From a virus: DNA of 64,000 nucleotides. The notes beneath the pieces were generated by a model, which was not told the origin of the DNA, did no database searches, and saw nothing but the letters and a program-made list of their open reading frames with translations. Below, piece by piece: positions 2,837 to 25,203 of this stretch (within the stretch, counting starts at the first letter, position 1; each line of letters opens with the position of its first letter). The position numbers and the translations under genes were made by a program. The stretch spans positions 36,840 through 100,839 of the IMG/VR virus record IMGVR_UViG_3300042731_008016; one strand, written 5' to 3'.

Positions 2837-3355
2837 ATGAACGAAGATAATCAACTAGAACAATTAATTGAAGAGCTTGAGATCGATCAAGATCAAGTCA
2901 AACCTATTGAGCTTGGTAAGGGATTAATCGAATATCGAAAATATCTTTGGGCTCTAAAGTTCATTAATGAAAAAATCGATAGATTAAAAGCTTATAAACT
3001 GGAGGTCACAAATGATATCGATCAAGCAATTGCTACCCAAGAAAATAACGTGGCAAGGATTAAAGACGTTATTGAAAAATCTATCATTGCTGACCCAATT
3101 GCGGATCGCACTAAGTCTGGAGGACGAACACTTAGTTTGCCAGATATCGCTACCGTCTCTCTCAGCAAACTCTCAGAAAAAATCGACATCGAAGACCCAG
3201 AAGCAGTCTTAGATGAGCTTGGTGAAGAATATAAAAAAGTTAAAGTTTCTCTAGATACTTCCAAGGCTAAAAAACATATTCAAGAAACTGGAATATTACC
3301 TAAAGGTGCCAGTAAACGAGAAGCTAGAACTTTATCAATTAGATTTAAACGATAG
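2837..3355 (+). CDS. Gam/Gp157-like host-nuclease inhibitor (coiled coil)
   Basis: N-terminal coiled coil; RTLSLPDIATVSL...KVSLD...G...RTLSIRFK pattern. Confidence 0.55.
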   Translation: MNEDNQLEQLIEELEIDQDQVKPIELGKGLIEYRKYLWALKFINEKIDRLKAYKLEVTNDIDQAIATQENNVARIKDVIEKSIIADPIADRTKSGGRTLSLPDIATVSLSKLSEKIDIEDPEAVLDELGEEYKKVKVSLDTSKAKKHIQETGILPKGASKREARTLSIRFKR

Positions 3356-3363
3356 GAGGATTT

Positions 3364-3591
3364 ATGGAAGTCAAAGTATTAGACAAACTTTATAAAATAG
3401 TAAGTGAATTCCAGGGACAAACCCTAGAAAACGTGGCTTTCTTAAAAAAGACAGTCCACGGAAAGGAGATACTAACTGCAGAACTTACATTTAAAGATCA
3501 AGCAGATGTCAGCAGAATAATGGTGTTTGCTTTAGATCAAGAATTAACTGAAGGAGATCACGTAGAAATGGTAGAAAAACTTCTTCAGTAA
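3364..3591 (+). CDS. hypothetical protein
   Basis: AGGAGG SD. Confidence 0.6.
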   Translation: MEVKVLDKLYKIVSEFQGQTLENVAFLKKTVHGKEILTAELTFKDQADVSRIMVFALDQELTEGDHVEMVEKLLQ

Positions 3592-3627
3592 AAATTATTA
3601 TAAGAGAATTTAAAAAGGAAAATTAAT

Positions 3628-4278
3628 ATGCCAATATCAGAAAAAGTACAAATCAATCCCCTAAAGATCAAAGTAATTGATGTTACCATTGTTGGTACTA
3701 CTAGCATGATTCAGCATCGTTTTGGTCAAAAAGCTAGAATGCAGATTCTAGAAAAACAAATGAGAACTGCTAAAACTGGGAAAAAGCCAGTAAGAGATCC
3801 AAATAATGAATTTGAGCAAGGCTTACATGTCATGGAGGAAGGTAAGTTTACCTACACAAATAAAGAGAATCCTGGATTGGGTGAAGTTAAGTTCACTGGT
3901 AAAGTTGGATTCCCAGCCTTCGGAGTAAAAGCAGCTATAGTTGCAGCAGCTCGAAATGTAGATGATCTTCCAATGACTCTATTAAGAGGGGCTCTTTTCC
4001 TTAAAGGTGATGAAAACGATTTAATTGAGGTCGAATACAAAAAACTCATTATGAGGGAACATACTGTAGTTATTGGAAGAGGAACTACCGATCTAAGATA
4101 TCGCCCAGAATTGAGAGACTGGACAATGAAATTACAAATTGAATTTAACTCTGACGTTTTAACCGTTTCAGAAGTTATCAATCTGCTTTCAATTGCTGGA
4201 TTCAGTGTTGGTTTGGCAGAGATGAGACCTGGAAAGACTGGTGGAAACTACGGGAAATTCGAAGTAAAGGAGCAATAA
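3628..4278 (+). CDS. stand-alone Cas7/RAMP-like RNA-binding protein (Vipr-like)
   Basis: N-terminal strand IDVTIVGTTSMIQH; FPAFGVKAAIVAAAR (cf. RAMP IPGSSLKGALR); C-terminal Gly-rich loop AGFSVGLAEMRPGKTGGNYGKFEV; next to a pentamer array. Confidence 0.75.
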   Translation: MPISEKVQINPLKIKVIDVTIVGTTSMIQHRFGQKARMQILEKQMRTAKTGKKPVRDPNNEFEQGLHVMEEGKFTYTNKENPGLGEVKFTGKVGFPAFGVKAAIVAAARNVDDLPMTLLRGALFLKGDENDLIEVEYKKLIMREHTVVIGRGTTDLRYRPELRDWTMKLQIEFNSDVLTVSEVINLLSIAGFSVGLAEMRPGKTGGNYGKFEVKEQ

Positions 4279-4279
4279 A

Positions 4280-4732
4280 ATGTCTAAGCTAAAAAGAGTA
4301 GAAAAAATTGCAATTGTCTGTGAAAAGATTGAGAAAAGAGATGGTATTCTCACTCCTCAGGCGGTTGTTGATGAAGCAAAATCATCTACATGTCTAATTC
4401 ACGATATGTTTGATTGGAATGATATTAGTGCTTCAGAAAAATATCGACTCGGACAAGCTAGAAAACTAATTAAAGAAGTAACTATTACTTACGAAAACAA
4501 AGAGATTCATAGTTATCAAAATGTTTTACTTAAAATTCAAAATCAGCAAGTTCAAGGTTATGCTTCAACTGTAAACATTTTGCAAAATGATGATTTGCGA
4601 AAACAAGTAATAGCAAAAGCTTTACAAGAACTTTTGTACTGGCAAGCTGAATATGCTAAATACAAAGAATTAGCTGATTTAGTTGATGCTGATAAATTAA
4701 ACAGTCTTAGCAAAAAACATAAAACTAAATAA
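4280..4732 (+). CDS. accessory protein of the RAMP/array locus (helical, function unknown)
   Basis: LTPQAVVDEAK...HDMFDWND..A.EKYRLGQARKLI; starts 1 nt after the RAMP gene and lies just upstream of the array. Confidence 0.6.
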   Translation: MSKLKRVEKIAIVCEKIEKRDGILTPQAVVDEAKSSTCLIHDMFDWNDISASEKYRLGQARKLIKEVTITYENKEIHSYQNVLLKIQNQQVQGYASTVNILQNDDLRKQVIAKALQELLYWQAEYAKYKELADLVDADKLNSLSKKHKTK

Positions 4733-4748
4733 AAGATAAGCTCTTTAA

Positions 4749-5145
4749 CAATTAAATAAGTGACTATTGAGGCAGGTGTGTTAAGGCACGCTGAAATACG
4801 TTGTGTGTCGGTTCGGGCTGGGTGAGATAAGTCCAGATTGGGTAAGGCAGGTCAGTTAGGATTTGGTAGATAGTGCAGCGATCAGATGAGCTCTGGAGGG
4901 ATCAGGTTAGGTTTGGCAGGTAAGTTGGGTTGGGTTGGGTAGAGAATTGTTTAGTTACGGTCCGATAAGGCAGGTGTGATGGGTTTGGTTCCGATATGAT
5001 GGAGTGCGGTTAGTTCTGGCAGGTGGGTTGGGCTGAAATGTGTCGGCAATGGACAGGTGGGTTATGGCAGGTGGAATTAGTTGCGATGTGTTCGGTTCAG
5101 GAGCGTTGCGATTAGGTGGGGTTTGATGTGTCACTTATTTAATTG
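4749..5145 (+). ncRNA. putative guide-RNA array: six GGCA-delimited units of RNT-NN pentamers, closed by a 16-bp inverted repeat
   Basis: GGCAGGT at 4771, 4846, 4915, 4969, 5018, 5066; 5-nt periodicity; CAATTAAATAAGTGAC (4749-4764) / GTCACTTATTTAATTG (5130-5145); G/T-rich and no long ORF. Confidence 0.8.
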
Positions 5146-5188
5146 AAAATTGTTAAAATAAAATTGTGTTAATTAATTAGGAGTAAAT

Positions 5189-6073
5189 ATGGAAGAACAA
5201 AAAATATTAATAGTTCCAATCGGCTCTATTAGACCAGATCCAGATCAACCAAGAAAAACATTTCTTGATAGTCATATTAACAGTCTAGCTCAAAGCATAA
5301 AGCAAGAAGGATTCATAAATGAGATTGAAATTGATGTTAATAACATGATTGTTACTGGAGAATGTAGATGGAGAGCTGCTAAAAAGCTTAATCTTACTGA
5401 AGTTCCGATAAAAATAAACGAAACACAGTTCACATCGTACACCAGATTACGAAGACAAATGGCTGAGAATGCCCACCAATCTGGGGCATCATACGAAAGA
5501 GCAATGAATCCTTTGGAAATAGCTGAGGGTTACGCTAGATTAATTAAGCTTAAAACTGGAAAAGATTGTCGGCCTGGCCAACAATCTCGTGAAGAATCTT
5601 ACGGTTTAATAAAAGGGGTTGCCTCTGAATTAGGTCTCCATAGATCGACAGTTTATGAATATTTAGAATTAATTGAACAACCAAAGGAACTTAAAAAAGC
5701 AATTGTCGAGAAGGGATTGCCACGAACTTATATTAGAGAAATTGAAAAAGCTCCTGAAGAAATCAAACCAGCACTTCAGAAAAAAGCAGTTGAGGGTGGT
5801 TATTCAAGCAGAAGAGAAATCAAAGAAGACGTTAAGTTAGCCAAAGATCATCCCGATGTTGCTGAAAAAGTTATTCCTAGACAAACTCCAGAAGCAGCTA
5901 AAAAAGAATCTATTGGAGGAGGAAGGTTGCTTACTTGGATCAGTGAGGGAGTTTTGGCTTTGAGAGCAATTCCTAGAAGAGAAATAAGAATTGAAGAAAA
6001 AGGAGCAGTTGAACAACAGCTTGAATGGATAGTAGAAAAAATCAACGCTTGGCAGCGTGATGAAAAAGTCTAA
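5189..6073 (+). CDS. ParB/Spo0J-like protein with HTH
   Basis: IRPDPDQPRKTF, IVTGECRWRAAK, NPLEIAEGY, VASELGLHRSTVYEYL. Confidence 0.85.
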   Translation: MEEQKILIVPIGSIRPDPDQPRKTFLDSHINSLAQSIKQEGFINEIEIDVNNMIVTGECRWRAAKKLNLTEVPIKINETQFTSYTRLRRQMAENAHQSGASYERAMNPLEIAEGYARLIKLKTGKDCRPGQQSREESYGLIKGVASELGLHRSTVYEYLELIEQPKELKKAIVEKGLPRTYIREIEKAPEEIKPALQKKAVEGGYSSRREIKEDVKLAKDHPDVAEKVIPRQTPEAAKKESIGGGRLLTWISEGVLALRAIPRREIRIEEKGAVEQQLEWIVEKINAWQRDEKV

Positions 6074-6075
6074 AT

Positions 6076-6264
6076 ATGACTCAACCAGTGCCTTATGAGC
6101 AACCAAATAATAATCAGACAATGCAGATTTGTCAGAGGTGCTTTGAACATGTAGCTTTAAAAATCTGTGCTAAATGCGGTTGCCCACTTTGCACTGAATG
6201 TTGGCCTAAACATATTTGTAATCAACCAGATCTAGGAGATAAAGAAGACAAAATAATAAACTAA
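6076..6264 (+). CDS. small Cys/His-rich zinc-finger protein
   Basis: CQRC..CAKC.CPLCTEC..HIC. Confidence 0.55.
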   Translation: MTQPVPYEQPNNNQTMQICQRCFEHVALKICAKCGCPLCTECWPKHICNQPDLGDKEDKIIN

Positions 6265-6348: not shown

Positions 6349-6702
6349 GTGATGATTATGTCAAAAGTTTATGTCAAACGAAACCTTAAATATTATAGTT
6401 GGTCAATTGAAAGTGAGGGTAATAACCTACCTTACTTAGTCATTCACGATAAAAGAAATGACATCACTATTAAGATAGATAAGGTTTATACAATGTCTCT
6501 TCATAAATTTATTCCAAATTATTTGGACAAATTGAGAATACTTCAAGGTAAGTCACTGAGAACCAAAATGTCCAAGATGAAAAAAAAGTATAAAGAATCA
6601 ATGGCCAAACAAAAGGCAAAGGTAAAAGCTGTCAAAAATAGACAAGCCTCACTTTTCACAAAGGCCAGAAAGGTTAAAAATGAAAGAGAAACAAGAAGAT
6701 AG
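6349..6702 (+). CDS. basic hypothetical protein
   Basis: ORF with GAGGTG SD. Confidence 0.5.
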   Translation: MMIMSKVYVKRNLKYYSWSIESEGNNLPYLVIHDKRNDITIKIDKVYTMSLHKFIPNYLDKLRILQGKSLRTKMSKMKKKYKESMAKQKAKVKAVKNRQASLFTKARKVKNERETRR

Positions 6703-17884: not shown

Positions 17885-18244
17885 ATGCCATATAAGGACA
17901 TTAAAAAACGAAGACAGAGTTCTCGAAAATACTATTATGCAAATCGAGAGAGGCTAATCGAGCAACAACGAGAGTATCGAGTAAAGTTGCGATTAGAGGT
18001 TCTTTCTCATTATAGTAATGGAGAGCCAAAATGTGCGTGTTGCAAAGAAAGCCAAATAGAATTTCTAGCAATAGACCATATCAATGGAGGTGGTACTAAG
18101 CATAGAAAAAGAATTGGCGGAGGAATGCACACCTATCTTTGGTTGAAAAAGCAAGGCTATCCGAAAGGATACAGAGTCTTATGTCATAATTGTAATCAAG
18201 CTTATGGCTTTTTCGGATACTGTCCTCACAATAAGCGGGATTAG
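17885..18244 (+). CDS. HNH homing endonuclease
   Basis: CACC....LAIDHINGGG...VLCHNCN. Confidence 0.85.
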   Translation: MPYKDIKKRRQSSRKYYYANRERLIEQQREYRVKLRLEVLSHYSNGEPKCACCKESQIEFLAIDHINGGGTKHRKRIGGGMHTYLWLKKQGYPKGYRVLCHNCNQAYGFFGYCPHNKRD

Positions 18245-18308
18245 TGTATTGGCGACACGACATCCTTCCAAGTTGTAGAAAGGGGTTCGATTCCCCTATC
18301 CCGCTCCA
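18235..18308 (+). tRNA. tRNA-Gly(UCC)
   Basis: GCGGGAT/ATCCCGC acceptor, CT-TCC-AA loop, TTCGATT T loop, TCCA end. Confidence 0.92.
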
Positions 18309-18447
18309 AACATTATGATGTTGACAATATAATGTCGAAAAAACAAACATTATAATGTTGTTATTAATAAATCTAGGAGAAAAGACCATGACTATATAGT
18401 CGCCTAACCCATTATTTTGAAGGGCGACCCCGAAGGGGGTGATAGTC

Positions 18448-18636
18448 ATGAGTACGCCTAGAAAAGGCCGAGGTAAATCTGGTAGTAGAAAATACGGTAG
18501 AAACAAGGTCAAATGTGCCCTTTACCGTGTGCAAAATCGAAGAGAGAAAAATAAATTGAGAAAGCTAAAAAAACTCTCTAAGAAACAGCCAAACAACAAA
18601 CAGATTCCAAAGCTAATCAAAAAGCTAGAAGGATAA
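18448..18636 (+). CDS. small highly basic protein
   Basis: K/R-rich 62 aa; GGGGTG SD. Confidence 0.55.
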   Translation: MSTPRKGRGKSGSRKYGRNKVKCALYRVQNRREKNKLRKLKKLSKKQPNNKQIPKLIKKLEG

Positions 18637-18691
18637 TTAAATGTTAACCGATGCTAAATACCATCATAAAAGCTACGGCATCACCTTTCAT

Positions 18692-18765
18692 GGTGACGGT
18701 AGCTTAGTGGCAAAGCACTCGGTTGTGGTCAGAGGGACGGGGGTTCGAATCCCCTCCATCACCCA
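18692..18765 (+). tRNA. tRNA-His(GUG)
   Basis: G-1; GTGACGG/CCATCAC; TT-GTG-GT loop; TTCGAAT T loop. Confidence 0.88.
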
Positions 18766-18811
18766 AAGCACATTAAATAATCAACAGAACTAATTACATC
18801 CTGCGCATTAT

Positions 18812-18882
18812 TGCGGAGTGGTGTAACGGTAGCACGCTGGGCTTTGAACCCAGAGGTCTTTGTTCGAATCAAAGCTTCGCAT
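18812..18882 (+). tRNA. tRNA-Gln(UUG)
   Basis: TGCGGAG/CTTCGCA; CTGGG-CTTTGAA-CCCAG; CTTTG-TTCGAAT-CAAAG. Confidence 0.9.
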
Positions 18883-18924
18883 CATAGAATTGACAATATA
18901 TATTTGAATTAATAAAATAGTTCA

Positions 18925-19269
18925 ATGCCACATAAAAATGTAGATGCTAGAAGAGCTTATGCTAGAGAATATTATAAAAGAAATCCACAAAGATGGATTG
19001 AAAAAAATAAAAAACGTAAAAAAGAAATATATAAATTTATAAGCGAATATAAAAGAAAAAATGGGTGTAAATTATGTGATGAGAATGAACCAGTAGCTTT
19101 AGATTTTCATCATATAAATAAAAACAAAGAAATCAATTTAGCACACGCTCAAACTAGAATGTGGGGAAAAACAAGAATTTTAAAAGAAATTAATAAATGT
19201 GTTGTATTATGTGCAAATTGTCATAGAAAAGTAGAAGCTGGAATAATAAAATTATCCAGGGAAGCATAA
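18925..19269 (+). CDS. HNH endonuclease
   Basis: CKLC....ALDFHH....KCVVLCANCHRK. Confidence 0.85.
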   Translation: MPHKNVDARRAYAREYYKRNPQRWIEKNKKRKKEIYKFISEYKRKNGCKLCDENEPVALDFHHINKNKEINLAHAQTRMWGKTRILKEINKCVVLCANCHRKVEAGIIKLSREA

Positions 19270-19328
19270 TTGGCATTTGCATCGGACTGTTAATCCGAAG
19301 ACAGAAGGTTCGAATCCTTCTCCTGGAG
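19255..19328 (+). tRNA. tRNA-Asn(GUU)
   Basis: TCCAGGG/TCCTGGA; TCGGA-CTGTTAA-TCCGA; GAAGG-TTCGAAT-CCTTC. Confidence 0.9.
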
Positions 19329-19339
19329 CACCTTAAAAA

Positions 19340-20940: not shown

Positions 20941-21602
20941 CTGACTTAAATGCCCTATTACCAAATCCAAAAGATATTAATTTATCTGCAGCTCACGTTG
21001 ATTTTAAACACCTAGATAAAACAGCTCTCAGACGTGCAAAAGTTCGTGAATTAATGCAGATGGGTTACAACAATACCCAAATTTCCCTAATTTTAGAAAA
21101 AGGAATTAGAGTTGGTGAGGGAAATGAACAAAAAGAAGTTCAAGTCCCCTGTAGTGAAGGTACTATCAGAAATGATATTAACTACATTCAAACTGAGTTC
21201 CTTTCAGCTGATGATGACATGTTGGTCAAAAGAGGCGAGCTTCTAGATAAACTTGGATTTCTTTATAATCAAGCTGTATCAAATTACACAACAGCAAAAG
21301 GGGCAGTTAAAAATAGTTTCTTGAATACAGCTTTAAATGTTATTAATAAGATTATGGAGGTTGAAGGTGTAAAATCTCCAGAGAATCTTAATGTTAATCT
21401 AAATGCAGAAGCTAAAGTAGCTCAGTTTGCTGCAGAAATACATAAATTAAGCGAAAATGACAAATCTACTATTCTCAGCGCAATTCGAAAAGTTCGTGAG
21501 GGACGCTTCAACAAAGGAAATGGAGAATCTGGAGTTTCTGATTCAGAACCCGAAGTACGAGCATCGACCAGTAACGATGAAGGAGTTCCTGGAGAATCCT
21601 AA
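20937..21602 (+). CDS. probable terminase small subunit
   Basis: HTH-like N-terminus plus helices, directly upstream of TerL. Confidence 0.55.
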   Translation: MTDLNALLPNPKDINLSAAHVDFKHLDKTALRRAKVRELMQMGYNNTQISLILEKGIRVGEGNEQKEVQVPCSEGTIRNDINYIQTEFLSADDDMLVKRGELLDKLGFLYNQAVSNYTTAKGAVKNSFLNTALNVINKIMEVEGVKSPENLNVNLNAEAKVAQFAAEIHKLSENDKSTILSAIRKVREGRFNKGNGESGVSDSEPEVRASTSNDEGVPGES

Positions 21603-24600
21603 ATTTGTTAATCCACAGGATGCTCCAAGACCTCATAATAAGCAACTCTTAATCGATATTTTTGATAGCGGTAAAACATTTGAAGATTTTGAGAACCTTG
21701 GTAAATACGAGGAGGCTCTCTATATTGCTGGAATTGGGAGTGGTAAATGTCTTGCTAGGGGAACCAAAATCATCCGCTATTCAGGTAAGGTTGATGTTGT
21801 AGAAAATATTAAACAAGGTGACTTGTTAATGGGCTGGGACAGTAAGCCAAGAAAGGTGATCTCACTATCAAGGGGCAGGGAAAAATTATATAAAGTAACT
21901 CCAACTAAAGGCGAACCTTTTATCATAAATCAATCCCATATTTTGTCGCTTAAAAGAACAAACAGGGGTATTATTGCCAATAATGGCAGGTTAGATCAAA
22001 AAGCAGGAGAGATAATAAACATATCAGTCTTGGAATATCTAGAGTTAAGCAACAAAATGAAGAACATTTTAAAACTATGGAGGGTTGGTATAAATTTTAA
22101 GAAAAAGAAGGTTAGTATAGATCCATACTTTTTGGGACTATGGTTGGGGGACGGTAATTCTCATAATATCGGAATCGCCACACAGGACATTGAGATTAAG
22201 AATGAAATATATAAACAAGCAAAAGTTTGTGGACTCGTGGTAAATATTAATCAAAATAAAAACAAAACTTGTCCAACATATATTGTCACAAGTGGAACAA
22301 AGTTGGGAAGTAAAAACAGAAATTCGCTATTAGAAAATTTTAAACAATATAATCTCATCAAAAATAAATATATTCCGCAAGTATATAAATTCAACTCAAA
22401 GAAAATCAGATTACAGTTGTTAGCAGGGCTAATTGATAGCGATGGATATCAAGGAAATAACTGTTTGGAGTTTTCCAATAAAAATAAAACCTTAATTGAT
22501 GATATTACATACCTGTGTCGTTCGTTAGGTTTTGCTGCCTATATAAAACAAAGGAAAACTTCCTGCAATGGAAAATCATTCATATCATATAGAGTTTCTA
22601 TATCGGGAGATTTAGAAAAAATTCCTGTTCAACTAGAAAGAAAAAAATGTACTAAAAGGACACAAAAGAAGGATGTTCTTTTAACTGGATTTAAAATAGA
22701 ACCTATTGGAATTGGTGATTATTATGGATTTGATGTAGATAGAGACCATTTGTATTTATTAGGTGATTTCACAGTTACCCATAATTCTTATGTTTCCTCA
22801 ATGGCCATTGTTTATAATATTTATCGTCTTCTTTGCTTAAAAGATCCACAAGCCTATTTTAAATTTGCTAAAGGCACAAAGATTGCTTTTATTAACATTT
22901 CCACATCTTTTTCACAAGCTAAGGATGTTGTTTTTAGCGAAATTAAAAACCGTGTTGATAACAACCAATGGTTTCAAAACTTCTTTCCACCTAACCCGAG
23001 AATTAAATCACTTCTTCAATTCCCTAAAAATATTTATATTTTGCCTCTAGGATCAAATGAAGAGTCTCCTCTCGGATACAATATTTTTGGAGCCGTCATT
23101 GACGAGGCTTCATTTCATACTTTAACTAAAGATAAAGATTACGCTGAAGAATCTTATAACCAGATTAAGAAACGTATTCGTTCTCGATTTTTATCTAAAG
23201 GAAAACTTTTCATTATTACTTCACCTCGGTACGTTTATGACTTCGCTGAGAAGAAAATGGAAGAGGAAGCTGATAATCCAAAAGTTTATAAAAAAAGAAC
23301 TCCTCTCTGGGATGCTATGCCACCAGATAGATTCTCTGGACAAAAATTTGATCTAGGCAAATATCTCCCCGCCTATAAGGGCGTCATGGTCCCCGTGGAA
23401 TACGAGGACGAGTTCAAACAAAATCCCGAGAAAGCCATGCGGGACTATGGCGCCCAACCATCTCAAGCTATCCAAAGCTTTTTTGCTAATCCATCAATCA
23501 TTGATGATAATGCTAATTATGATAGAAAACACCCAATTAATCCCAAAGATGGTGAATTTCACACATGGTTTTTCAACAGAGCAAGTCAAGAAGATTATGA
23601 TTCAGATAAAAGATTTATTCATGTTGACCTTGGACTTAATAGAGAAGGAAAAGGCGACTGTGCTGGGTTTGCTATGGGTAAATTTGATGGATGGATTGAA
23701 AAACAGAGTACATCTGGAAAAATGGAAAAGCGTCCAAAAGTTAAAATTGATCTTATGTTAAGAATTGAGGCTGGACCACGCAAAGAAATTAAATTTGAAG
23801 AAATCAGACAAATGATCTATAAAATCAGAGATATTGGTTATAATATTCACAAGATTACTTTTGATGGTTGGCAAAGCGAAATTGGAAGTACAATGGTCAA
23901 GTTGCTTGATGGGACAAACAAAAGAATGGATGAAATTACAAACGGTGCTTGGATTTATTCATTTGACTTAAATAAAAAAGAAATTGTCCCAGCCTTTTGT
24001 AAACCAGTAAAACAAACTGGAATAAATGCTCCAGTTTACGAAATCATCATAGATAATGGACAAAAAATATACCTAACAAAAGAACATCCATTGTTAATGA
24101 AAAATGGAACCTATAAACAAGTAGAGTTTCTTAAATGTGGAGATAGTTTGATGCCATTTAATACAAGCTTTTTAGAAAGAAAAAACAAAACTAATACAAA
24201 ACCAAGACAATATGAAAAAATATTCCAACCAAATACAAATACTTGGGAAATGACACATGATATGGTTGCTAGGAATGTTTATGGAGAAAAACCAAAAAAT
24301 AATGTAGTTCATCATAAAGATTTTAATTCTCTAAATAATGAACCAGACAATTTAGAGTATTTATATGTTAAGAAGCATACTGCATATCATCGAAAATTAA
24401 CTCAAAAATCTAATCAAATCAGATGGTCAAAAAAAGGTGAAAGACGGAAGCAAGCTCAATTAATGAGAGATAGAAATAAAAAATATAATTTACCATCTTT
24501 ATTAAAACCACCAACTAAAGAGATTGCTAAAAAAATAGCACTAACAATTAAAAACAAATGGGACAATAATAACGAATATCAAGAAAAAATGGCAAAAAGA

Positions 24601-25203
24601 CCAGTATATTGTGGTGAGTATTCTCCACATTTTAATAGAGATATACCTAATGAAATATTATTTAAAGCCTGTGCTACCAGTAATTCTCTGGAAGAAGTTA
24701 AGCAAAAATTGAACCTTAAAAATACGTTTTTTGTTATAAGAAGATTAAAGACATTGGGTTACAAAGGATTCAAGGACTACAAATCACAAAAAAATCATAA
24801 AGTTGTATCTGTCAAATTTCATGGATATGAGGATGTTTATGACATAGAAGTACCAAAATATAATAATTTTGGACTTTCGGCAGGTATATTTGTTCATAAT
24901 TCCATAGACTCTATTCAAATGCTTAATTCAGCTGGTTTTAAAGCTGAGACATTCTCAATCGATAGGAATCCAGAAGCCTACTATACCGTCAAAGCTGCAA
25001 TTTTAGATGATCGTCTTGATTATTACTATTACGCACCATTTTCTGAAGAACTTAAACAACTTGAAGAAATTAAAGGCATGAAAATCGATCACCCTAGACA
25101 AGGAAAGAAAGACGTAGCTGATGCTGTAGCTGGAGTATGTTATCACGCTGCACAAGGAACTCCTGGTGTCGGATTTCTTGGAGTCAAACAGACACAATCT
25201 TGA
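21457..25203 (+). CDS. terL: terminase large subunit with two inteins
   Basis: GIGSGK|S Walker A, VIDEA Walker B, HVDLG, FDGWQ|S, KIDHP...KDVADAVAG nuclease motifs. Confidence 0.92.
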   Translation: MTNLLFSAQFEKFVRDASTKEMENLEFLIQNPKYEHRPVTMKEFLENPKFVNPQDAPRPHNKQLLIDIFDSGKTFEDFENLGKYEEALYIAGIGSGKCLARGTKIIRYSGKVDVVENIKQGDLLMGWDSKPRKVISLSRGREKLYKVTPTKGEPFIINQSHILSLKRTNRGIIANNGRLDQKAGEIINISVLEYLELSNKMKNILKLWRVGINFKKKKVSIDPYFLGLWLGDGNSHNIGIATQDIEIKNEIYKQAKVCGLVVNINQNKNKTCPTYIVTSGTKLGSKNRNSLLENFKQYNLIKNKYIPQVYKFNSKKIRLQLLAGLIDSDGYQGNNCLEFSNKNKTLIDDITYLCRSLGFAAYIKQRKTSCNGKSFISYRVSISGDLEKIPVQLERKKCTKRTQKKDVLLTGFKIEPIGIGDYYGFDVDRDHLYLLGDFTVTHNSYVSSMAIVYNIYRLLCLKDPQAYFKFAKGTKIAFINISTSFSQAKDVVFSEIKNRVDNNQWFQNFFPPNPRIKSLLQFPKNIYILPLGSNEESPLGYNIFGAVIDEASFHTLTKDKDYAEESYNQIKKRIRSRFLSKGKLFIITSPRYVYDFAEKKMEEEADNPKVYKKRTPLWDAMPPDRFSGQKFDLGKYLPAYKGVMVPVEYEDEFKQNPEKAMRDYGAQPSQAIQSFFANPSIIDDNANYDRKHPINPKDGEFHTWFFNRASQEDYDSDKRFIHVDLGLNREGKGDCAGFAMGKFDGWIEKQSTSGKMEKRPKVKIDLMLRIEAGPRKEIKFEEIRQMIYKIRDIGYNIHKITFDGWQSEIGSTMVKLLDGTNKRMDEITNGAWIYSFDLNKKEIVPAFCKPVKQTGINAPVYEIIIDNGQKIYLTKEHPLLMKNGTYKQVEFLKCGDSLMPFNTSFLERKNKTNTKPRQYEKIFQPNTNTWEMTHDMVARNVYGEKPKNNVVHHKDFNSLNNEPDNLEYLYVKKHTAYHRKLTQKSNQIRWSKKGERRKQAQLMRDRNKKYNLPSLLKPPTKEIAKKIALTIKNKWDNNNEYQEKMAKRPVYCGEYSPHFNRDIPNEILFKACATSNSLEEVKQKLNLKNTFFVIRRLKTLGYKGFKDYKSQKNHKVVSVKFHGYEDVYDIEVPKYNNFGLSAGIFVHNSIDSIQMLNSAGFKAETFSIDRNPEAYYTVKAAILDDRLDYYYYAPFSEELKQLEEIKGMKIDHPRQGKKDVADAVAGVCYHAAQGTPGVGFLGVKQTQS
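21748..22785 (+). mobile_element. intein 1 (346 aa) with LAGLIDADG endonuclease, in the TerL Walker A motif
   Basis: CLARGT...VTHN|S; FLGLWLGDG and LLAGLIDSDG. Confidence 0.93.
23875..24900 (+). mobile_element. intein 2 (342 aa, Ser1) with HNH endonuclease, in the TerL nuclease domain
   Basis: SEIGSTMVKLLDG; LTKEHPL; VHHKDFNSLNNEPDNL; VYDIEV...IFVHN|S. Confidence 0.9.

What the first reader, a model, noticed from the sequence alone, without database searches (positions are those of the whole stretch)
3628..5145. Cas7/RAMP-like gene, partner gene and pentamer-coded RNA array: candidate gapped RNA-guided system
Seen: 4771-5129 splits at GGCA into six units of 75, 69, 54, 49, 48 and 64 nt, each a run of 5-nt modules. 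Unit 3 reads GGCA ggtAA gttGG gttGG gttGG gtaGA gaaTT gttTA gttAC ggtCC gatAA. By hand count, 61 of 66 full modules start with G, the other 5 with A, and 54 have T at position 3; positions 4-5 vary freely. One 1-nt insertion (unit 1) and one 1-nt deletion (unit 5) are needed. The upstream 216-aa protein has RAMP/Cas7 hallmarks, including the C-terminal Gly-rich loop, and the window has no other cas genes or CRISPR array. Inference: protomers polymerise at one per 5 nt, bind the constant triplet and display NN for non-contiguous pairing. This matches my recollection of recently reported phage VIPR systems (GGY/NN repeats), which I cannot verify here. The scaffold here is the more degenerate G(G/T/A)T, so this may be a divergent subtype.
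Basis: partly seen in the sequence, partly recalled or inferred. Interest (0 to 1): 0.97.

Follow-up and report, generated by a model that had tools for sequence, protein, structure and literature searches.

The report
Phage VIPR guide-RNA system
A complete 100.8-kb wetland phage carries a VIPR system, the CRISPR-like RNA-guided DNA silencer first described in 2026. It has a relaxed repeat code, one guide that spells the conserved core of bacterial type I restriction-methylase genes, and another that spells the active site of ImmA/IrrE switch proteases.

Summary
The 216-aa protein (3628-4278) is a homologue of the solved SUSP1 Vipr protein (family profile E 1.3e-11) and has a Cas7/Csm3-like fold. 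The next gene (4280-4732) is a conserved partner, found in 48 of 52 related loci. Region 4771-5129 is a six-unit array of 5-nt modules, G-N-T plus a variable NN.

Units are separated by an invariant 4-nt GGCA. The same punctuation marks 85% of phase breaks in 45 related arrays, and it fits the published "staggered" vrRNA arrays. This is therefore a new member of a known kind.

- Module position 2 is almost free here. This goes with a Trp-to-Met change at the residue that stacks on G2 in SUSP1 Vipr (4 of 5 independent Met lineages).
- Under the published 1-nt-skip rule, unit 3 matches type I hsdM genes perfectly (6 of 401 genomes, about 0.003 expected).

Targets of units 1, 4, 5 and 6 were not found. 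Expression could not be tested. This scan has already noted VIPR loci on much other DNA, some with restriction-directed guides.

The parts
3628..4278 (+). vipr: 216-aa stand-alone RAMP (Vipr homologue). By alignment to SUSP1 Vipr the base-contacting residues are H30 (= H17), R159 (= R138), E198 (= D177), M199 (= W178) and R200 (= R179).
   Evidence: PDB 36pp_D 'SUSP1 Vipr protein': E 1.6e-3 for the single sequence and 1.3e-11 for the profile. AF2 model pLDDT 88.6. Foldseek top hits are all Csm3/Cas7, probability 1.0. phrog_4652 E 3e-23. Residue roles come from paper 720927.
4280..4732 (+). vap-like accessory gene, 150 aa: a winged-helix-like N-terminal domain (weak match) plus a C-terminal helical hairpin.
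   Evidence: tblastn finds a homologue beside vipr in 48 of 52 loci, placed either before or after the array. phrog_15946 E 5e-26. AF2 pLDDT 90.8. Foldseek gives only weak hits, all winged-helix domains. VIA-align Z 5.2-6.2 to FoxP, PadR, MecI and Fur type domains over residues 1-102.
4749..4764 (.). Left arm of a perfect 16-bp inverted repeat that encloses the whole array.
   Evidence: The minimum-free-energy RNA fold of 4740-5160 closes this helix and extends it to about 23 pairs.
4771..5129 (+). vrRNA array: six units, 67 modules, each unit opened by GGCA|GGT.
4771..4845 (+). Unit 1: 14 modules, one of them 6 nt. Target not identified.
   Evidence: The pattern search gave 22 sites against 21 control sites, which is chance level.
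4846..4914 (+). Unit 2: 13 modules. The NN code reads x-[RS]-[FL]-[RS]-V-A-H-E-L-G-H-Y-[FL], the HExxH core of ImmA/IrrE (Peptidase_M78) genes.
4915..4968 (+). Unit 3: 10 modules. The NN code reads K-G-G-G-E-F-Y-T-P-K, a conserved motif of type I HsdM methyltransferases.
4969..5017 (+). Unit 4: 9 modules. Target not found.
5018..5065 (+). Unit 5: 9 modules, including an internal 4-nt module GTCG that resembles the GGCA punctuation. Target not sought (halves too short).
5066..5129 (+). Unit 6: 12 modules. It has no closing GGCA and runs into the right arm of the clamp. Target not found.
5130..5145 (.). Right arm of the 16-bp inverted repeat.

Best explanation
The locus is a VIPR system carried by a complete, probably virulent, 100.8-kb tailed phage. 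It consists of vipr (a RAMP), a small vap gene with a weak winged-helix-like match, and a 'staggered' array of six guide RNAs.

Inferred mechanism, taken from the published family:
1. The array is transcribed with vipr and vap.
2. It is cut or trimmed at the GGCA|G junctions into RNAs of about 48-75 nt.
3. One Vipr protomer binds each 5-nt module. It sequesters the three scaffold bases and displays the two variable bases.
4. The filament reads double-stranded DNA two bases out of every three, so that the skipped base falls on the codon wobble position, and it blocks transcription.

Shown here in silico: the homology and fold of Vipr, the conserved vipr-vap-array module, the GGCA punctuation across the clade, the relaxed position 2 that goes with the W-to-M change in the G-loop, and external targets for two guides. 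Those targets are the hsdM genes of type I restriction-modification systems and the ImmA/IrrE protease genes of resident mobile elements.

My reading is that the phage uses the system against resident competitors (unit 2) and perhaps against restriction (unit 3).
For: Protein:
- Profile to SUSP1 Vipr (36pp_D) gives E 1.3e-11 across profile positions 21-198 of 203.
- The AF2 model has pLDDT 88.6, and its top 50 PDB hits are Csm3, Cas7 or Cmr backbone subunits.
- H30, R159, E198 and R200 align with the SUSP1 residues that hold G1, G2 and Y3.

Context:
- Same-strand pentamer arrays lie within about 1 kb of vipr in 46 of 50 IMG/VR or MAG loci and in both closest metagenome relatives.
- A vap homologue is present in 48 of 52 loci, whereas ParB and the other neighbours are not conserved.
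- The genome is a virus record with terminase, portal, protease and major head protein genes, direct terminal repeats and 100% estimated completeness.

Array:
- 182 of 213 phase breaks in 45 distinct arrays fall at GGCA|G. The median unit is 55 nt, or 11 modules.
- This matches the fig. S18 legend (adjacent vrRNAs overlap by 1 nt) and the published 9-16 repeats per vrRNA.

Targets under the 1-nt-skip rule:
- Unit 3 has 6 perfect 20-of-20 sites and 28 sites at up to 2 mismatches in 401 genomes, against 3 control sites and about 0.003 perfect matches expected.
- 12 of the 14 unit-3 loci examined lie in HsdM_N + N6_Mtase genes.
- Unit 3 has 3 exact hits in IMG/VR under a 1-nt skip and none under a 0- or 2-nt skip.
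- Unit 2 matches 24 of 26 bases in an ImmA-like ORF of a viral contig.
- Unit 2 also matches 21-23 of 26 bases in four Peptidase_M78 genes.
- An unrelated array (L010) carries a guide for the same ImmA/IrrE motif, where shuffles give a mean of 0.01.

Self-avoidance: there is no self-target beyond shuffles, and the phage has no N6_Mtase or Peptidase_M78 gene of its own.
Against: - There is no expression evidence. No RNA run holds the locus, no sigma-70-like promoter or intrinsic terminator stands out, and the preprint says staggered arrays were not confirmed by sRNA-seq.
- The scaffold is weak: position 2 carries almost no information, 5 modules start with A, 11 lack a pyrimidine at position 3, and two modules have the wrong length. 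Some units may therefore be decaying.
- Four of the six guides have no identified target.
- The host is unknown, so I cannot show that a matching hsdM or immA gene is present where the phage replicates.
- None of the sampled genomes with a perfect unit-3 site also matched unit 2 or unit 6.
- Transcriptional silencing of hsdM would not remove restriction complexes that are already present.
- The fold assignment of vap is weak (Z about 6, no Foldseek E at or below 1e-3).
Confidence: 0.88

Rival explanations
1. It is a decaying or orphaned VIPR remnant. The genes and array descend from a VIPR system, but the scaffold has drifted (free position 2, irregular modules) and the array no longer loads onto the protein.
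For: Position 2 carries 0.15 bit. There are 5 A-starts, 11 non-pyrimidines at position 3, and one 6-nt and one 4-nt module. Four guides have no target.
Against: Both ORFs are intact and fold with high confidence. L051 and L052, at only 56-59% protein identity, show the same relaxed scaffold (G at position 2 in 0.32-0.39 of modules), so it is a maintained clade trait rather than recent decay. The relaxation goes with a specific G-loop substitution in 4 of 5 independent lineages. Unit 3 still matches hsdM at 20 of 20 positions.
Confidence: 0.07
2. The guides act on the phage's own biology or on RNA, for example regulating phage transcripts, and not on foreign DNA. The hsdM and ImmA matches would then be relics of where the guides were copied from.
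For: The published structures show that Vipr filaments can also pair with ssRNA. No host is known.
Against: No guide matches the phage's own genome better than shuffled guides do. The published systems silence DNA, and the triplex needs DNA. The guide matches lie on codon positions 1 and 2 of foreign genes, as in the published natural targets.
Confidence: 0.03
3. The G/T-rich period-5 tract is a DNA-level element, such as a centromere, iterons or an origin serving the adjacent ParB-like gene, and is not an RNA gene.
For: A ParB-like gene (ParB_N + HTH_ParB) starts 44 nt after the right arm. The tract is clamped by an inverted repeat.
Against: ParB is absent from all 52 related loci, whereas the array follows vipr and vap in 48 of them. 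The array is strand-specific and its variable positions spell foreign coding motifs.
Confidence: 0.02

Closest known systems
VIPR systems with 'staggered' vrRNA arrays (bioRxiv 10.64898/2026.04.26.720920, fig. S18 legend)
   Same: A stand-alone Vipr RAMP plus one accessory gene plus head-to-tail vrRNAs with no spacer or tail between them. If the last module is read as GGCAG, its final G is also the first G of the next unit's GGTNN. That is the 1-nt overlap the legend describes.
   Different: The figure itself is not held, so identity with that architecture is inferred from the legend only. The type (I-VII) cannot be assigned. The scaffold here is G-N-T. Written in the paper's phase this is YNNGN, which is not among the variants named in its methods (NNNGG, YNNNG, NNNNG).
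Type II VIPR of Escherichia phage SUSP1 (Vipr structure PDB 36pp; vrRNAs of 9-16 GGY/NN repeats plus a pseudoknot tail)
   Same: Homologous protein (profile E 1.3e-11). Conserved H, R, acidic and R contacts to the scaffold bases. 9-14 modules per guide. Phage-borne. Targets fit the 1-nt-skip, wobble-aligned rule. No self-targets.
   Different: No invariant 3' tail or pseudoknot: units abut at GGCA. W178, which stacks on G2, is Met here, and G2 is not conserved. The proteins are only remotely similar (single-sequence E 1.6e-3). The predicted targets are hsdM and ImmA/IrrE, not a satellite recombinase or cI/cro-type regulators.
Class 1 CRISPR backbone subunits (Csm3 / Cas7 / Cmr4)
   Same: RRM-based RAMP fold with a thumb and a glycine-rich loop. 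They are the top structural matches (6xn3_F E 1.7e-5, probability 1.0).
   Different: No CRISPR repeats, no other cas genes, a single RRM, and 5-nt rather than 6-nt periodicity. The guide bases are interleaved with scaffold bases instead of forming a contiguous spacer.

Membership tests
VIPR system | Vipr protein: a RAMP homologous to the described Vipr family | tested here: met
   hmmsearch of a 35-sequence profile against PDB gives 36pp_D 'SUSP1 Vipr protein' at E 1.3e-11, covering 178 of 203 profile positions. phmmer gives E 1.6e-3.
VIPR system | RRM core, thumb and glycine-rich loop that hold the scaffold bases | tested here: met
   The AF2 model (pLDDT 88.6) matches Csm3/Cas7 chains at probability 1.0. 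The invariant motif G-x-x-E-[MW]-R-P ... G ... G-x-F and R159 align with SUSP1 D177, W178, R179 and R138.
VIPR system | Minimal locus without a CRISPR array or other cas genes | tested here: met
   TRF finds no CRISPR-like array in 64 kb. There are no PADLOC, Pfam or NCBIfam cas hits for the locus proteins. Only vipr, vap and the array are conserved across loci.
VIPR system | vrRNA made of tandem 5-nt repeats with a conserved GGY alternating with a hypervariable NN | tested here: met
   Period 5 has z = 6.2. Positions 1 and 3 carry 1.61 and 1.20 bits, and positions 4-5 carry about 0.1 bit. The departure is that position 2 is free (0.15 bit), so the consensus is G-N-T rather than GGY. The paper allows 'a related consensus'.
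VIPR system | 9-16 repeats per vrRNA | tested here: met
   The units have 14, 13, 10, 9, 9 and 12 modules. The clade median is 11.
VIPR system | Accessory vap gene with a predicted DNA-interacting fold | tested here: inconclusive
   The conserved neighbour is clear (48 of 52 loci). The winged-helix assignment rests on weak matches only: no Foldseek E at or below 1e-3, and VIA Z 5.2-6.2. No sequence comparison with vap1-6 was possible.
VIPR system | Targets recognised by the 1-nt-skip rule, wobble-aligned, on either strand | tested here: met
   Unit 3 in xNN register gives 6 perfect and 28 near sites in 401 genomes against 3 control sites. It gives 3 exact IMG/VR hits under a 1-nt skip and none under a 0- or 2-nt skip. 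Unit 2 matches 24 of 26 bases in a viral ImmA-like gene. These are bioinformatic matches, not binding assays.
VIPR system | No self-targeting of the source contig | tested here: met
   The best self-matches of all guides fall within the range of shuffled guides.
VIPR system | vrRNAs are expressed and co-purify with Vipr as a ribonucleoprotein | not testable with these tools
   No RNA run holds the locus. This needs sRNA-seq and a pull-down.
VIPR type II (SUSP1 / P. fulva clade) | Invariant structured 3' tail (pseudoknot) after each repeat tract | tested here: not met
   Units abut directly at GGCA with no intervening constant sequence. There is no Rfam or structural signal beyond the outer clamp. 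I therefore do not file it as type II.
CRISPR-Cas class 1 | CRISPR repeat-spacer array and a multi-gene cas operon | tested here: not met

The most novel reading that the evidence does not exclude
Unit 3 is an RNA-guided anti-restriction device. The phage aims a Vipr filament at the codons of the invariant K-G-G-G-E-F-Y-T-P-K core of host type I hsdM genes, reading only codon positions 1 and 2. A single guide would then cover many hosts, and escape would require changing this conserved core of the methyltransferase. A Trp-to-Met change in the Vipr G-loop has also freed scaffold position 2, giving a distinct G-N-Y code. Host restriction-modification genes are not named as VIPR targets in the main text of the three preprints. 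This scan has, however, noted similar guides on other DNA.
Probability: 0.3. Interest if true: 0.75.

Novelty: new member of a known kind. Interest (0 to 1): 0.45.

Why it matters
VIPR systems were described only in 2026, and only type II has been tested in depth. This locus adds three things:
- It is a well-delimited example of the tail-less, GGCA-punctuated array. The preprint's main text says that architecture was not confirmed by RNA sequencing.
- It offers a natural experiment on how Vipr reads its scaffold, because Met in place of the G2-stacking Trp goes with a free second base.
- It provides two decoded guides that point at conserved catalytic cores, one in a host defence gene (hsdM) and one in the induction protease of resident elements (ImmA/IrrE).

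If the hsdM guide works, VIPR would be a programmable anti-restriction tool of phages as well as a weapon between phages. The relaxed scaffold would also widen the design rules for engineered vrRNAs.

Tried and rejected
Closed or empty tools:
L051 and L052 came from a metagenome scan instead.
- No RNA holder is listed for the locus. The only full holder is the wetland metagenome that is probably the source.
- Rfam gives no family in 3300-5400.
- blastn of 3000-6100 against 50,697 phage records gives no match.

Targets sought and not found:
- Exact IMG/VR scans for the full units 2, 6 and 4 gave 0 hits.
- Unit 6 at up to 3 mismatches gave 0 hits in 201 genomes.
- Units 1, 2, 4 and 6 do not match the hsdM loci better than shuffles do, so the guides do not converge on one operon.
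- None of the sampled genomes with a perfect unit-3 site also matched unit 2 or unit 6, so no host was identified.

Readings rejected or left open:
The best full-length matches are all HELGHY in Peptidase_M78 genes, and the one AQELGQYF site lies in an M24 aminopeptidase.
- The terminal 'AG' of the GGCAG module is not matched by the next codon in the perfect hsdM sites. Whether the last module pairs is therefore open.
- The inverted-repeat clamp is not a clade feature. It is present only here and, with a different sequence, in L052.
- The phage has no tyrosine integrase, N6_Mtase or Peptidase_M78 gene.
Full report
**Observation.** Region 4771-5129 splits at GGCAGG into units of 75, 69, 54, 49, 48 and 64 nt. 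Same-base autocorrelation peaks at lags 5, 10, 15 and 20, with z = 6.2, 4.2, 3.2 and 2.9 against shuffles. A phase-tracking parse gives 67 modules: 65 of 5 nt, one of 6 nt in unit 1 and one of 4 nt in unit 5. In the 65 full modules:
- position 1 is G 60 / A 5;
- position 2 is G 22 / T 21 / A 17 / C 5;
- position 3 is T 54 / A 8 / C 3;
- positions 4-5 are close to random.

A simple detector (at least 8 of 10 in-phase G-N-Y modules) finds nothing else on either strand of the window. At 7 of 10, the whole 100,839-bp genome gives this region plus a single 50-nt stretch on the other strand.

**The protein.** The 216-aa ORF has no Pfam, NCBIfam or PADLOC hit, but it belongs to phrog_4652. Against PDB sequences its only meaningful hit is chain 36pp_D, named 'SUSP1 Vipr protein'. 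The single sequence gives E 1.6e-3. A profile of 35 homologues gives E 1.3e-11 over nearly the whole length. The AlphaFold model (pLDDT 88.6, pTM 0.82) matches Csm3, Cas7 and Cmr backbone subunits at probability 1.0.

The structural preprint names the SUSP1 residues that hold the scaffold bases: H17 and D177 for G1, R138 and W178 for G2, and R179 for Y3. By alignment these are H30, E198, R159, M199 and R200 here. All are conserved in kind except the Trp, which is Met.

**The known system.** VIPR is in print as three 2026 preprints. It comprises a stand-alone RAMP (Vipr), usually one accessory gene (vap), and vrRNAs of 9-16 GGY/NN pentamers. One protomer binds each pentamer. Double-stranded DNA is recognised with one target base skipped per NN, usually the wobble base. 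The outcome is transcriptional silencing of rival mobile elements. There are seven types, and they include 'staggered arrays' whose adjacent vrRNAs overlap by 1 nt.

**Relatives.** I obtained 50 loci from IMG/VR and two MAGs (26-40% identity). Two closer metagenome loci, L051 and L052, are 59% and 56% identical.
- Same-strand pentamer arrays lie just downstream of the homologue in 46 of the 50 and in both close loci.
- The 150-aa neighbour has a homologue in 48 of 52 loci, in the order vipr-vap-array or vipr-array-vap.
- ParB and the other window neighbours are not conserved, except in L051, which is a related phage.
- In 45 distinct arrays, 182 of 213 phase breaks are the 4-nt module GGCA followed by G, and 148 of those read GGCAGGT. 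The median unit is 55 nt.

Read as GGCAG + GGTNN sharing one G, this is the 1-nt overlap of the fig. S18 legend. I cannot see the figure, so that equation is an inference. There is no constant tail between units, so the locus is not type II.

**vap.** The model is confident (pLDDT 90.8). Its matches are weak but consistent. Foldseek gives winged-helix domains (RecQ/BLM RQC, MecI, Fur, FoxO) at E 0.2-1. VIA-align gives Z 5.2-6.2 over residues 1-102, followed by a helical hairpin. This fits the DNA-binding Vaps the preprint mentions, but it does not prove that vap is one of them.

**Relaxed scaffold.** In this clade G at position 2 falls to 0.32-0.39 of modules (window, L051, L052). On a Vipr tree, Met at the Trp position occurs in five separate lineages.
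- Four Met lineages have G2 at or below 0.55.
- Every Trp lineage with at least 30 modules has G2 at or above 0.62.
- One Met lineage (L021) keeps G2 at 0.92.

Low genomic G+C (0.29-0.38 in the window clade) is a confounder. Even so, Trp-type loci of similar G+C, such as L039 at 0.36, keep G2 at 0.68. I rate the link between residue and code as suggestive, at about even odds.

**Targets: unit 3.** I joined the NN pairs with one wildcard between them, following the published rule. The unit-3 pattern reads K-G-G-G-E-F-Y-T-P-K.
- In 401 genomes of one phylum it has 28 sites at up to 2 mismatches: 6 perfect, 1 with one mismatch and 21 with two. The reversed-pattern control gives 3 sites, and about 0.003 perfect matches are expected by chance.
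- Twelve of the 14 loci examined place the site at the start of the N6_Mtase domain of type I HsdM genes. At least one of these is followed by hsdS.
- IMG/VR holds 3 exact sites, all in hsdM. The same NN string with a 0- or 2-nt skip gives none.
- By a rough estimate, sites are about a hundred times denser in cellular genomes than in viral contigs. That favours a host gene over a rival phage.

**Targets: unit 2.**
- The 3' half gave about 100 sites against 37 control sites in 251 genomes, and they decode to zincin HExxH motifs.
- The best full-length matches (21-23 of 26 bases) read x-R-F-T-[LIF]-A-H-E-L-G-H-Y-F and lie in Peptidase_M78 (ImmA/IrrE) genes.
- A viral contig has a 24-of-26 match, T-R-F-S-V-A-H-E-L-G-H-Y-F, in an ImmA-like ORF.
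- A second phylum gave one more such site and no control site.
- Among 178 unique guides from relatives, one (L010, 36% Vipr identity) spells the same ImmA motif, where shuffles give a mean of 0.01.

**Targets: the rest.** Unit 1 is at chance level. Units 4 and 6 gave nothing. No guide matches the phage's own genome beyond shuffles, and the phage has no N6_Mtase or Peptidase_M78 gene.

**Context.** The genome is a virus record with direct terminal repeats, and its first bases recur from position 100,771 to the end. Estimated completeness is 100% and G+C is 35%. It encodes terminase, portal, protease, major head protein, a UvsX-like recombinase and four tRNAs, but no tyrosine integrase. It is probably virulent. 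The host is unknown.

**Reading.**
- Shown: homology, fold, conserved module, punctuation, code statistics and two target classes.
- Inferred from the family: transcription, processing at GGCA, filament assembly, 1-nt-skip binding and silencing.

ImmA/IrrE proteases trigger induction of resident prophages and integrative elements (established for ICEBs1 ImmA and similar systems). Silencing one would therefore lock a competitor in place. This parallels the published silencing of a satellite's recombinase and of lysis-lysogeny regulators. The hsdM guide suggests anti-restriction. That remains the bolder and less certain part, because pre-existing enzyme would persist and the gene's owner is unknown.

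The idea that guides sit on catalytic-core codons to block escape is already in print for a recombinase. Restriction-modification targets are not mentioned in the main text of the three preprints. I therefore class the locus as a new member of a known kind.

Noticed in passing
window 4744-4764 and 5130-5157: A perfect 16-bp inverted repeat encloses exactly the vrRNA array, and a second, overlapping 10-bp pair lies beside it. In an RNA fold the helix extends to about 23 pairs and would sequester the first GGCA. L052 has an 11-bp clamp of unrelated sequence at the same place (6185-6195 / 6515-6525). Eight other relatives checked have none. It could be an RNase III-type excision stem for the precursor, or a cassette boundary.
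   Followed up: partly
window 5038-5041 (inside unit 5): The single 4-nt module inside unit 5 reads GTCG. It has the same G-N-C-N shape as the GGCA punctuation. Unit 5 may therefore be two very short guides or a decayed junction.
   Followed up: no
L010:4977 (IMGVR_UViG_3300023212_000229): A distant Vipr relative (36% identity) carries a guide that decodes to x-R-F-T-[IM]-A-H-E-[IM]-G-H-Y. This is the same ImmA/IrrE active-site motif as window unit 2, so two arrays have converged on one target class.
   Followed up: partly
L001:4560-5400: This relative's array keeps the GGCA punctuation, but its modules are mostly G-[GT]-[ATC]. Position 3 is also relaxed and the first module is GTA or GTC, so my G-N-Y detector missed it. 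The scaffold code varies further within the family.
   Followed up: no
window 5189-6073: A ParB-like gene (ParB_N + HTH_ParB) lies directly after the array. It also scores weakly against PADLOC type II methyltransferase models. It is not conserved beside vipr in any relative.
   Followed up: partly
window 21457-25203: A 1248-aa ORF combines a large-terminase N-terminal part with HNH-endonuclease matches at residues 914-1154. It may be an intein or a homing-endonuclease insertion or fusion.
   Followed up: no
L101:11994-13838 (IMGVR_UViG_3300042268_000342): One hsdM gene with a perfect unit-3 site has an N-terminal HTH_3 (XRE-type) domain fused to HsdM_N + N6_Mtase.
   Followed up: no
window 18235-19329: A cluster of four tRNA genes (Gly-tcc, His-gtg, Gln-ttg, Asn-gtt). 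Earlier notes of this scan describe odd RNAs next to it.
   Followed up: no
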